Source of the DNA: Podarcis vaucheri
Taxonomy: Eukaryota
Assembly: GCA_965113315.1 (NCBI GenBank)
Contig: OZ220369.1
Length of the DNA stretch: 64,000 nt
Direction: 5' to 3' (one strand)
This document shows positions 1 through 3,000 of this stretch, piece by piece; positions within the stretch are counted from its first letter, which is position 1, and the number at the start of each line of letters is the position of its first letter. Made by a program: the position numbers.

Positions 1-3000
1 AGTATCAGTCTGCAACAGTCTTCCCTGCATTTGGAGAGGGAGATGCATCCGCTATAGTAGCTAAATAAATCAGGTTTCTGTGCAGTGTGTGCTGGTGTCT
101 GTAACAGAGAAACAGAAGAATGAGATTCCTTAGGGCAACTGAAATAACAGAATAGCTCTGGCAGCCAGCATATAAGTGACAGTAGGATTTAGGTCTCTAT
201 TTTGCTCACTTCATACTTGAGAAAGGAGGGGGAAGGCAAGAGTTGTTAATTAATATGAAGCCAATAATATTTTTGAACCCTCTTAGCTTCTTTCCCCTGT
301 TCCTGATAGCATTTTATTTTTAAATTGAAGGAAATGTTGTTGTTTTTTTTAAAAATACTAATTAAGTCAATGTTTTGTTGTTGTTTAGTCGTTTAGTCGT
401 GTCCGACTCTTCGTGACCCCATGGACCAGAGCACGCCAGACACTCCTGTCTTCCACTGCCTCCCACAGTTTGGTCAAACTCATGTTGGTAGCTTCAAGAA
501 CACTGCCCATGTTTAATGATGTTTAATGATCACTTAATTCCTGTAAAGGCATAGATGAGTGGGCAATGATGCACACTGGAGCACATCATTCTAACTTTAC
601 ATTCACACTGATGAAGTCTGAACTAGCAGTGTCTAACCAGGGAAGATCTTGCTGTTGTGGTACACAGCTCTATAAAATCGTCAAGCTTGTGCAGTGGCAG
701 CAAAAGGGGGAAATGTTAGGGATTATTAGAAAAGAAATTAAAAATAAAACAATGGCCTTTCAGAAGTCTAGGGCTGCCAAGAAGAAGGGTCGGTACATCT
801 GTAAGCTATTACCTCCCACATTAAAGTCAGCAAAATAAACAAGATTTTCATTAATGCCCTGCACAGTCTGGTTGTGTTTTACAGACCAATTGCATTTATT
901 TCAGCAACAATGTGCCTGATTTCAATTCTCCTTCACCTCCCCTGTAAATTTGCTCAGGACCAATGAGATTTATTCAAACCCACGTCTCGCAATGAGACAC
1001 GCAAGCTCTCTAAACAATTACTTGATTGTTTGCTTTAATCAAGCAAATACAAAAATGAAGTCCTGAAAAATGCATAATAGGCGACTCTTAGATTGAATTT
1101 ACTTACTGCACACATTCTTCAGCTCTTCCTTTATTCTGATATTCCACAATACATCGAATAAGCTGGTCATTTTCTTCAAGCAGCTGAAAGTCACAACAGC
1201 ACTGGATCAACTGCATATTACAGGAACTTGTTCAAGAACTACTACTAAACAATTACACTGGATAATTGTGAGGATGCTTTATAGACTGTGCACTACCATC
1301 TCACGATCAAGGAGGCAGTGTGTGGGTGGGTGATCAGAGGCTTCAAAGGCACCAGGGAACAATTTTAAGAGCACCATGGTGCCCACAGGTGTCCTACTGA
1401 TGACCCCTGATTTCAGATTATTAAAGTGGTGGGTGAAGAATATCCGGTACTAAAAGAATGTCAACTTCAGTCGTCAACTTACAGACTTAAATATTAAAGG
1501 GTGAGTTTTCTTTTTGGTAGCGTTAAGAGTTTACTATTACTGCAAAAGGTATAGGATATTCTCGCAGACTATGCTATTCATTTGTTTTAGTCATCTTTCT
1601 GGCAGTGTACCGCTTTTTATTGTACTTGGTTATGGCCTCTCGCTAAGCAATCATGACCGAGGAGAGTGAAGGAGCCGAACTGCGCAGCGCCACTGATTTC
1701 GGCCAACCCTGAGAATGTACAGAGTGCACTGCCCTTCCTAATGCGCAGGCGGATCAGAGTGGGCGTTCCTTGACCAGAGTCACTGACGTCACCCTCTCAG
1801 CTTTTAAGCAGCCCGGACCATCTTCACGCAGCCTGCAAGAGGCGGGGAATGAAATGGCAAAGACACTTCCGGTTCTAATCGGCTAACTAACCCAATACAA
1901 AGAACCTGGCCAGAAAACCAGAGAGAGCGGAAAGGTAGAGCGGCGCTCTGACTCCTCCCGATGTTCTTGCCTTTCCTATGGCGGCGTATGGGAGTTAAAA
2001 ACAGGGCTGCGTGAGCGACGCTCCCCTCCGCTCTCTCTATGGCGCCCGTCCCTTTCGCTCACCCGTTGCAACGTCTCTTGGTTCACCTCCGCCTTGCCTC
2101 GGAGTTTCTCCGGCACGAAAACCACCGACATGCCAGCGGAGGGAGCGGCAGCGGCTTCTAAGCCTCACGCGAAAAGTGGGCCGCGACGCAAAGGTTGATG
2201 GGAGCAAAAGGGCAATACTTTGCACCGATTGGCTGCCCCTGTGCGGCCTCGGAAGCTCCCTTACATGAATGCAGATCATTAAATGTAGAGTAGTCCATAT
2301 CCCGGTGTGACTACGAAGCTTCCGAGTTTTGAAAATTCCGACCAGTTAAACGGGTTAGACTACAGTGAAAGAATTTATGTGTGTATATGAGAGAGAAGAG
2401 TGTGCCAATCAATTTCTAGCGTTACGGAAGAGGGAGAAAAACTTTACTTTCTCTGCGCTATGCATAATTTTGTGGATTTCTATCACGTCAGGCTGCAGCA
2501 AAGACCGTGCTAATTAAGGGGCCTGCTCGCCACTCTCTTCCCAAATCGGCGCTCACTCGCAGCACAGACGCGGCTTCTCCGACTAGCAAAGCCTGCAACG
2601 AAAAATCTCAAGTTAACCCGGGAGCTGCGCAGCGCGTGCGACTCTACATCCTTCCTTCAGTCTATAGTATACGTATCAGAGGAACTCCCTTCCTCTCCCC
2701 CGCCGTTCTTCGAAGCCTTCGTAGCAATTGGCCAGTCGGGCCGGTGGAGGCGGGCTCTGAAAACAAATTACGACGGCGGGGCCTCGGTTGTGTTGGGAAG
2801 GCGGGCTATGGGCTGATTGGCGAGCCTGAAGGCTCGAGGGGCGGACGTGATTGGTCAGAGGCACGAAAGGTGGGCGGGGCCAAGTCGAGGTGAGTTGCCA
2901 GGGCTCCGGTTGTCAAGCGGCAGCCAATCAGGGTGGGGGATGGGAGCGGGTGGTGGAGGCGGAGAGCGCTGAGAGCCGTTCAGACGGAGGAGCGCGCGGG

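What the first reader, a model, noticed from the sequence alone, without database searches (positions are those of the whole stretch)
5..3000. Hidden intron-containing SS18L2 gene head-to-head with KATNB1, a neighbourhood unlike human
Seen: a complete, intact 79-aa SS18L2-like gene with three small exons (69/77/94 nt), absent from the ORF track, starts about 0.8 kb from the KATNB1 first-exon donors. Established (recalled): human SS18L2 lies on chr3 near SEC22C/NKTR, whereas KATNB1-KIFC3 lies on chr16 next to DRC7. Inference: because it keeps introns it is not a retrocopy, so it is either a translocated orthologue or an ancient SS18L2 paralogue lost in mammals, sharing a bidirectional promoter with the katanin subunit gene.
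Basis: partly seen in the sequence, partly recalled or inferred. Interest (0 to 1): 0.65.

Follow-up and report, generated by a model that had tools for sequence, protein, structure and literature searches.

The report
SS18L2 gene beside KATNB1, ancestral position
A small three-exon SS18L2-type gene really does sit head-to-head with the katanin p80 gene here, but this most likely reflects the original vertebrate arrangement, and a move of SS18L2 in early mammals has already been suggested in print.

Summary
On the minus strand, three coding exons (2131-2063, 1183-1107, 98-5; 69/77/94 nt) have GT-AG borders and encode 79 residues. Searched separately, exons 2 and 3 match Pfam SSXT (E 4.6e-12 and 2.9e-8) at consecutive profile positions 12-36 and 38-60. 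Exon 1 has no hit of its own. KATNB1 lies on the plus strand (ATG 4972, stop about 21014) and KIFC3 on the minus strand. A CpG island with six CCAAT boxes lies between the SS18L2 and KATNB1 starts.

Lamb 2021 (PMC8040251, sections read) names SS18L2 among five ohnolog families whose chromosome breaks the paralogon pattern only in opossum and human, and suggests a translocation in a stem mammal. The KATNB1-side position is therefore probably ancestral, and the mammalian SEC22C/NKTR position derived. The shared promoter is plausible but untested.

I could not test copy number in this genome, gene order in other vertebrates or expression. The protein databases were closed, no vertebrate genome collection was on hand and paper supplements were closed. 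I do not take the window for human. Interest is low.

The parts
2063..2131 (-). SS18L2-type coding exon 1 (69 nt, 23 codons, phase 0 end). ATG at 2131-2129, donor GT at 2062-2061.
   Evidence: Sequence, translation. An in-frame stop lies 11 codons upstream. There is no Pfam or PDB hit on its own. It is supported by position, frame, a good donor (CGG|GTGAGC) and the need for SSXT profile positions 1-11 upstream of exon 2.
1184..2062 (-). Intron 1 (879 nt), GT...AG
   Evidence: Its 5' part lies within the CpG island.
1107..1183 (-). Coding exon 2 (77 nt, 25 codons plus 2 nt)
   Evidence: Translation. Pfam SSXT E 4.6e-12, profile 12-36. PDB 7vrb_A residues 66-89, E 5.9e-4.
99..1106 (-). Intron 2 (1008 nt), GT...AG. 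It holds a SINE/BovB-tail-like stretch at about 380-530.
   Evidence: The repeat label is recalled and untested. No second copy is found in the window at E 1e-5.
5..98 (-). Coding exon 3 (1 nt plus 30 codons plus TGA at 7-5). The 3' UTR and poly(A) signal lie beyond the window's left edge.
   Evidence: Translation. Pfam SSXT E 2.9e-8, profile 38-60. PDB 7vrb_A residues 92-111, E 4.5e-3.
2132..3200 (.). Divergent promoter region. The CpG island spans about 1601-3200 in all. CCAAT boxes start at 2228(-), 2405(+), 2727(-), 2816(-), 2850(-) and 2924(+).
   Evidence: CpG observed/expected is 0.70-1.11 in the eight 200-nt bins from 1601 to 3200, against 0.10-0.43 in the seven bins from 1 to 1400. 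There are 6 CCAAT in 829 nt against 136 in 64,000 nt, and 1.8% of windows of that size reach 6.
2887..3123 (+). Candidate donors for an untranslated first KATNB1 exon: GAG|GTGAGT (GT 2890-2891) and CAG|GTACTC (GT 3122-3123)
   Evidence: Sequence only. Not verifiable without RNA data.
4953..5011 (+). KATNB1 first coding exon. Candidate acceptor AG at 4951-4952, ATG at 4972-4974, donor GT at 5012-5013. The codon split across the intron (C|AG) is completed at 5409.
4972..21016 (+). KATNB1 coding span (WD40 exons from 5409, con80 exons at 17.2-21.0 kb, stop after 21013)
   Evidence: Pfam WD40 in 4 of 4 N-terminal pieces (one below the cut-off at 17.5 bits) and Katanin_con80 in 3 of 3 C-terminal pieces. 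PDB katanin p80 B1, E 7.9e-22. ORF lists.
26456..38303 (-). KIFC3 exons (motor domain at 26.4-31.7 kb, coiled coil up to at least 38.3 kb), tail-to-tail with KATNB1
   Evidence: ORF list. Pfam Kinesin or Microtub_bd in 3 of 3 pieces. Best PDB hit is KIFC3 5wde_A, E 5.1e-42, against 3.7e-27 for the next kinesin.

Best explanation
This is the SS18L2 orthologue of a non-mammalian vertebrate, probably a squamate reptile. It encodes a 79-residue protein that is little more than an SNH (SSXT) domain. By likeness to SS18, it should form a helical bundle with the QLQ region of the BRG1/BRM-type SWI/SNF ATPase, while lacking the QPGY tail of SS18.

The gene sits head-to-head with KATNB1, about 0.8-1 kb from KATNB1's likely untranslated first exon. 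A CpG-island, CCAAT-rich region between them probably drives both genes.

This position is most likely the one the gene has held since the vertebrate genome duplications. In the mammalian stem lineage SS18L2 was moved as DNA, introns included, to the SEC22C/NKTR locus.

Shown: the gene structure, the domain, the neighbouring genes and the promoter composition. Inferred: orthology, BRG1 binding, shared promoter use and the direction of the move.
For: Gene model and domain.

BRG1 binding: in the alignments to 7vrb_A, the three SS18 residues that form the hydrophobic cores with BRG1 (I32, L54, A65) are identical in the window's peptides, at exon 2 residue 9 and exon 3 residues 5 and 16. This uses chain numbering = SS18 + 42. 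Their joint change to Glu largely disrupts BRG1 binding (PMC9117659, passages read).

Short form: the stop follows 10 codons after the last matched SSXT profile position. The nearest Atlas clusters for exon 3 are 65- and 55-residue SSXT-only chordate proteins, with scores of 0.79 and 0.77, which is a lead only.

Not SS18 itself: identity to the SS18 SNH domain is 12 of 24 and 12 of 20 aligned residues (my count).

Neighbours: KATNB1 and KIFC3.

Polarity: Lamb 2021 states that SS18L2 mismatches the paralogon pattern only in opossum and human, and suggests a stem-mammal translocation. The same paper places zebra finch chromosome 11 and part of chromosome 20 in one paralogon, row 10. From recall, KATNB1/KIFC3 lie on bird chromosome 11 and SS18L1 on chromosome 20, so an SS18-family ohnolog beside KATNB1 is where the pattern predicts it.

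Human SS18L2 shares a bidirectional start site with SEC22C. SS18L2 appears in gene lists from chicken expression studies.
Against: Exon 1 has no homology hit of its own.

The 3' end lies at the window edge, so neither a poly(A) signal nor a continuation beyond the window can be checked.

No RNA data exist, so expression and both transcription starts are unknown.

No other vertebrate genome or protein set could be searched, so orthology, copy number and gene order elsewhere rest on one paper's main text. Its table of positions (S1B) is a supplement I could not open.

The assignment of KATNB1 to the chromosome-11-type ancestral chromosome, and of the SS18 family to paralogon row 10, is recalled and not tested.

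The CCAAT enrichment is modest: 1.8% of equal-sized windows match it.
Confidence: 0.75

Rival explanations
1. It is an additional, ancient SS18L2-like paralogue that mammals lost. The true orthologue of mammalian SS18L2 would then lie elsewhere in this genome, beside SEC22C/NKTR.
For: The neighbourhood differs from human and pig. Copy number in this genome could not be examined.
Against: Lamb 2021 treats SS18L2 as one ohnolog with orthologues in the non-mammals analysed, whose chromosomes all fit the pattern. The window holds only one copy. A second copy is an extra assumption that nothing here supports.
Confidence: 0.1
2. The gene moved next to KATNB1 in this organism's own lineage, and the SEC22C/NKTR position is the ancestral one.
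For: Only this one window was seen. No other non-mammal locus could be inspected.
Against: In Lamb 2021 the two mammals, not the five non-mammals, break the chromosome pattern. A KATNB1-side position fits the paralogy of bird chromosomes 11 and 20 (plus recalled gene locations).
Confidence: 0.08
3. It is not a working stand-alone gene. It could be a silent relic, or the first three exons of a longer SS18-like gene that continues beyond the window's left edge.
For: The window ends 4 nt after the stop. There are no expression data. Exon 1 is not confirmed by homology.
Against: All three exons are open, in frame and bordered by GT-AG sites. The BRG1-contact residues are kept. The start lies in a CpG island. 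The in-frame TGA closes the frame, and the only GT in exon 3 downstream of the matched domain has poor donor context (ACT|GTTGCA).
Confidence: 0.05

Closest known systems
Mammalian SS18L2 (human chromosome 3, beside SEC22C and NKTR)
   Same: A short protein made of an SSXT/SNH domain only, encoded by a small intron-containing gene that starts at a divergent promoter. In human the start site is shared with SEC22C.
   Different: The neighbour here is KATNB1, not SEC22C/NKTR. The length here is 79 residues. The human length and exon count are recalled only and were not compared.
SS18 (BAF subunit; PDB 7VRB, SS18 residues 14-101 fused to BRG1 172-213)
   Same: The SNH domain, with identical residues at the positions of SS18 I32, L54 and A65, which pack against BRG1.
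   Different: Only 24 of 44 aligned residues are identical. There is no QPGY tail, because the frame stops 10 codons after the last matched SSXT profile position.
Yeast SNF11
   Same: A small stand-alone protein that binds the QLQ region of the SWI/SNF ATPase in the same heterodimer geometry as the SS18 SNH domain (PMC9117659, passages read). It is a functional analogue of an SNH-only protein.
   Different: It is a fungal protein. No sequence comparison was made here.
Vertebrate head-to-head gene pairs with CpG-island, CCAAT-rich bidirectional promoters
   Same: Divergent orientation, a CpG island spanning both 5' ends, and six CCAAT boxes in 829 nt.
   Different: The transcription starts are unknown. 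The features of this promoter class are recalled, not taken from a paper read here.

Membership tests
SSXT / SS18 family (Pfam PF05030, SNH domain) | Match to the SSXT profile above the gathering score | tested here: met
   Exon 2 scores 45.8 bits and exon 3 scores 33.6 bits against a cut-off of 26.2. Each was searched alone.
SSXT / SS18 family (Pfam PF05030, SNH domain) | Whole domain present and collinear (profile 1-62) | tested here: inconclusive
   Positions 12-36 and 38-60 lie in consecutive exons, and the split codon falls at position 37. Positions 1-11 would fall in exon 1, which gives no hit on its own.
SSXT / SS18 family (Pfam PF05030, SNH domain) | Hydrophobic residues that contact BRG1 (SS18 I32, L54, A65) | tested here: met
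   All three are identical in the alignments to 7vrb_A. Their role is taken from PMC9117659.
SS18L2 subtype (SNH-only short form) | Frame ends soon after the SNH domain, with no QPGY region | tested here: met
   TGA at 7-5, 10 codons after the last matched profile position. Caveat: the window ends 4 nt further on.
SS18L2 subtype (SNH-only short form) | Groups with SS18L2, not SS18 or SS18L1, in a gene tree | not testable with these tools
   The protein databases were closed and no vertebrate sequences were on hand. The only indirect evidence is 24 of 44 identities to SS18.
SS18L2 subtype (SNH-only short form) | Mammalian-type neighbourhood (SEC22C, NKTR) | tested here: not met
   The window holds KATNB1 and KIFC3 instead. 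This is expected if mammals are the derived state. It bears on the locus, not on the protein family.
Processed retrocopy | Intronless, often with a poly(A) tract and flanking direct repeats | tested here: not met
   There are two introns of 879 and 1008 nt with GT-AG borders.
Bidirectional promoter pair | Divergent genes with transcription starts less than about 1 kb apart | not testable with these tools
   The divergent orientation is shown. The SS18L2 ATG lies 758 or 990 nt from the two candidate ends of KATNB1 exon 1. No start site is mapped.
Bidirectional promoter pair | Shared CpG island with CCAAT boxes | tested here: met
   The enrichment is modest.

The most novel reading that the evidence does not exclude
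The SS18L2-KATNB1 head-to-head pair is the ancestral vertebrate arrangement, and its CCAAT-rich shared promoter co-regulates two genes that both act around mitosis. Katanin p80 is one (its mitotic role is recalled). SS18L2 is the other: its knockout arrests human cells in G2/M (PMC9381743, passages read). The stem-mammal move would then have uncoupled the pair and put SS18L2 under a new shared promoter with SEC22C.
Probability: 0.25. Interest if true: 0.35.

Novelty: already known. Interest (0 to 1): 0.2.

Why it matters
The finding matters only modestly. It adds one fine-scale data point, SS18L2 directly upstream of KATNB1 and divergent from it, to a translocation that has been suggested in print only at chromosome level. 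It also shows that genes with exons of 23-31 codons escape ORF tracks. If the pair proves conserved from fish to reptiles, it would date and polarise the mammalian move, and it would offer a natural test of what happens when a small chromatin-related gene changes its promoter partner.

Tried and rejected
- **Exon 1 alone** gave no family in Pfam and no chain in the PDB at E<=10, so it stays supported by context only.
- **Rfam** over the whole window at gathering thresholds gave 0 matches.
- **Tandem repeats** in 1-6000: one weak array at 5870-5910, unrelated to the finding.
- **Second CpG-rich patch at 4401-4600.** I considered it as an alternative KATNB1 promoter. It is an interspersed repeat with a diverged copy at 38.8-39.0 kb, so I rejected that idea.
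- **Literature searches that gave nothing:**
  - SS18L2 with KATNB1: 0 papers.
  - SS18L2 with 'SNH domain': 0 papers.
  - At least 4 of SALL1, SALL3, SALL4, NFATC3 and 'paralogon': 0 papers, so the 16q/18/20q paralogy stays a recollection.
  - At least 2 of SS18L2, KIFC3, DRC7, CCDC135, CNGB1 and GPR97: 40 papers, 20 listed. Only one listed paper holds SS18L2 (a mouse expression study, not read).
- **Chicken papers.** 7 papers hold SS18L2 and 'chicken'. I read passages in 5 of them. Three only list the gene among expression results and give no chromosome.
- **PMC3038855** lists CCDC135, KIFC3 and CNGB1 at human 16q21 but not KATNB1. KATNB1's place between them is recalled.
- **Atlas look-up with exon 3** scored below 0.8, which is a lead only.
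- **Not attempted:**
  - Genome contigs, which holds bacteria and archaea only.
  - The phage, plasmid and E. coli collections, which are irrelevant here.

Full report
**What is there.**
- Read on the minus strand, the first 2.2 kb of the window holds three short coding exons.
- Exon 1 (2131-2063, 69 nt) opens with an ATG. An in-frame stop lies 11 codons upstream. The exon ends at a good donor, CGG|GTGAGC.
- Exon 2 (1183-1107, 77 nt) follows an AG at 1185-1184 and ends at GCA|GTAAGT.
- Exon 3 (98-5, 94 nt) follows a long pyrimidine tract and an AG at 100-99, and ends with TGA at 7-5.
- The three translations give 23, 25 and 30 residues. A codon split CA|A across intron 2 adds one more, making 79.
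- The introns are 879 and 1008 nt.

**Is it more than chance?**
- I searched each exon on its own.
- Exon 2 matches Pfam SSXT (PF05030) with E 4.6e-12 over profile positions 12-36. Exon 3 matches with E 2.9e-8 over positions 38-60. Both are above the family's gathering score.
- The one missing position, 37, is exactly the split codon, so the splice junction 1107/98 is confirmed by the profile.
- In the PDB the only hit for either exon at E<=10 is chain 7vrb_A, a BRG1-SS18 fusion. Exon 2 matches residues 66-89 and exon 3 matches residues 92-111, again collinear.
- Exon 1 (23 residues) hits nothing alone. It rests on its ATG, its frame, its donor, its place in the CpG island, and the fact that profile positions 1-11 must be encoded upstream of exon 2.
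- A weaker in-frame donor, GAG|GTGAAC, lies eight codons earlier in exon 1. It would remove part of the domain.
- In the window each exon peptide finds only itself.

**The neighbours.**
- KATNB1 lies on the plus strand. Its first coding exon has its ATG at 4972 and a donor at 5012-5013. Its split codon is completed at 5409.
- Four of four N-terminal ORF pieces hit WD40, one of them below the cut-off. Three of three C-terminal pieces hit Katanin_con80.
- One exon matches katanin p80 B1 structures at E 7.9e-22. The frame closes after 21013.
- KIFC3 lies on the minus strand, tail-to-tail with KATNB1, from about 26.4 kb to at least 38.3 kb.
- Its best structure hit is KIFC3 itself, at E 5.1e-42 against 3.7e-27 for the next kinesin.
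- KATNB1's ATG exon follows a candidate acceptor at 4951-4952, so an untranslated first exon is expected upstream.
- The best donors in the CpG island are GAG|GTGAGT (GT 2890-2891) and CAG|GTACTC (GT 3122-3123). They lie 758 and 990 nt from the SS18L2 ATG.

**The region between the two genes.**
- CpG observed/expected is 0.70-1.11 in all eight 200-nt bins from 1601 to 3200, and 0.10-0.43 in the seven bins from 1 to 1400.
- Six CCAAT boxes lie between 2228 and 2924. The window as a whole has 136 in 64 kb, and 1.8% of windows of the same size reach six.
- One box lies about 100 nt upstream of the SS18L2 ATG.
- This composition fits a divergent CpG-island promoter. The features of that promoter class are recalled.

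**What the protein probably does.**
- 7VRB is BRG1(172-213) fused to SS18(14-101). The SNH domain forms a four-helix bundle with the QLQ region of BRG1.
- SS18 residues I32, L54 and A65 form the hydrophobic cores. Changing all three to Glu largely disrupts binding (PMC9117659, passages read).
- With chain number = SS18 number + 42, the alignments show all three residues identical in the window's peptides.
- Overall identity to SS18 is 24 of 44 aligned residues, so this is a relative of SS18 and not SS18 itself.
- The frame stops 10 codons after the last matched SSXT profile position, so there is no QPGY tail.
- I therefore infer an SNH-only partner of the SWI/SNF ATPase, comparable in layout to yeast SNF11 as that paper describes it.
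- Human SS18L2 is called uncharacterised. Its knockout arrests cells in G2/M, unlike knockout of SS18 or SS18L1 (PMC9381743, passages read).

**The synteny claim.**
- Human SS18L2 overlaps SEC22C and NKTR on chromosome 3 and shares a bidirectional start site with SEC22C (bioRxiv 10.1101/2021.03.16.435537, passage read).
- Pig chromosome 13 has the same neighbours (PMC10969825, table passage).
- The difference is not new. Lamb 2021 curated ohnolog families in gar, reedfish, Xenopus, zebra finch, chicken, opossum and human (PMC8040251; sections 5, 6 and 12 read, plus passages of sections 10, 11, 13, 14, 19 and 23).
- That paper reports five families with two chromosome mismatches, SS18L2 among them. 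[quoted passage not shown]
- It also places zebra finch chromosome 11 (cell 10B) and part of chromosome 20 (fused cell 10C/11C) in the same paralogon row.
- From recall, KATNB1 and KIFC3 lie on bird chromosome 11 (human 16q-like) and SS18L1 on chromosome 20. Many families have members on human 16q, 18 and 20q.
- An SS18-family member beside KATNB1 is therefore where the duplication pattern predicts the third ohnolog.
- The positions themselves are in supplementary table S1B, which I could not open.

**Verdict on the interpretation.**
- 'Not a retrocopy' is right.
- 'Translocated orthologue or lost paralogue' should be turned round. This is most likely the orthologue in its original place, and the mammalian gene is the one that moved.
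- It moved as genomic DNA, since this copy has introns. That the mammalian gene also has introns is recalled.
- A shared promoter is plausible and untested.

**What stayed unchecked.**
- Copy number in this genome, gene order in other vertebrates, a gene tree, and expression.
- No paper in the searched library holds both SS18L2 and KATNB1, and 58 papers hold SS18L2 at all. The adjacency itself may therefore be undiscussed in print, although public annotations probably show it.

**Origin of the window.** I do not take it for human. SS18L2 lies beside KATNB1, and several interspersed repeats look like squamate SINEs. That resemblance is recalled and untested.

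Noticed in passing
window 380-530 (minus strand, inside SS18L2 intron 2): A stretch ending in a short repeated motif and an A/C-rich tail resembles the 3' tail of BovB-derived SINEs. The resemblance is recalled. No second copy is found in the window at E 1e-5.
   Followed up: partly
window 27600-27950 and 37500-37900; also 15660-15990 and 22450-22970: Pairs of loci give near-identical peptide strings in the stop-to-stop ORF lists. This points to interspersed repeats in the introns of KIFC3 and KATNB1 and between the two genes. 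The first pair looks like a tRNA-derived squamate SINE (recalled), which hints at the organism.
   Followed up: no
window 4401-4600: An isolated CpG-rich patch (13 CpG, observed/expected 1.04) lies upstream of KATNB1's first coding exon, in its presumed first intron. It is a repeat with a diverged copy at 38815-39014, not a second promoter.
   Followed up: yes
window 55500-56900: A second GC-rich region, with G+C 0.48-0.51 in the 2-kb bins at 54-58 kb and long open frames on both strands. It is possibly the KIFC3 promoter and first exon. I did not analyse it.
   Followed up: no
window 2326-2331 and 1785-1795: A TTTGAA hexamer (the cell-cycle CHR motif, recalled) lies between the two genes, and a TGACGTCA palindrome (CRE-like, recalled) lies in SS18L2 intron 1. 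Single short motifs like these are expected by chance.
   Followed up: no
window 48770-48850 and 51680-51860: Simple repeats show up as runs in the ORF lists: a triplet run read as poly-Ile/poly-Asn, and dinucleotide runs read as Arg-Glu, Thr-His or Cys-Val repeats.
   Followed up: no
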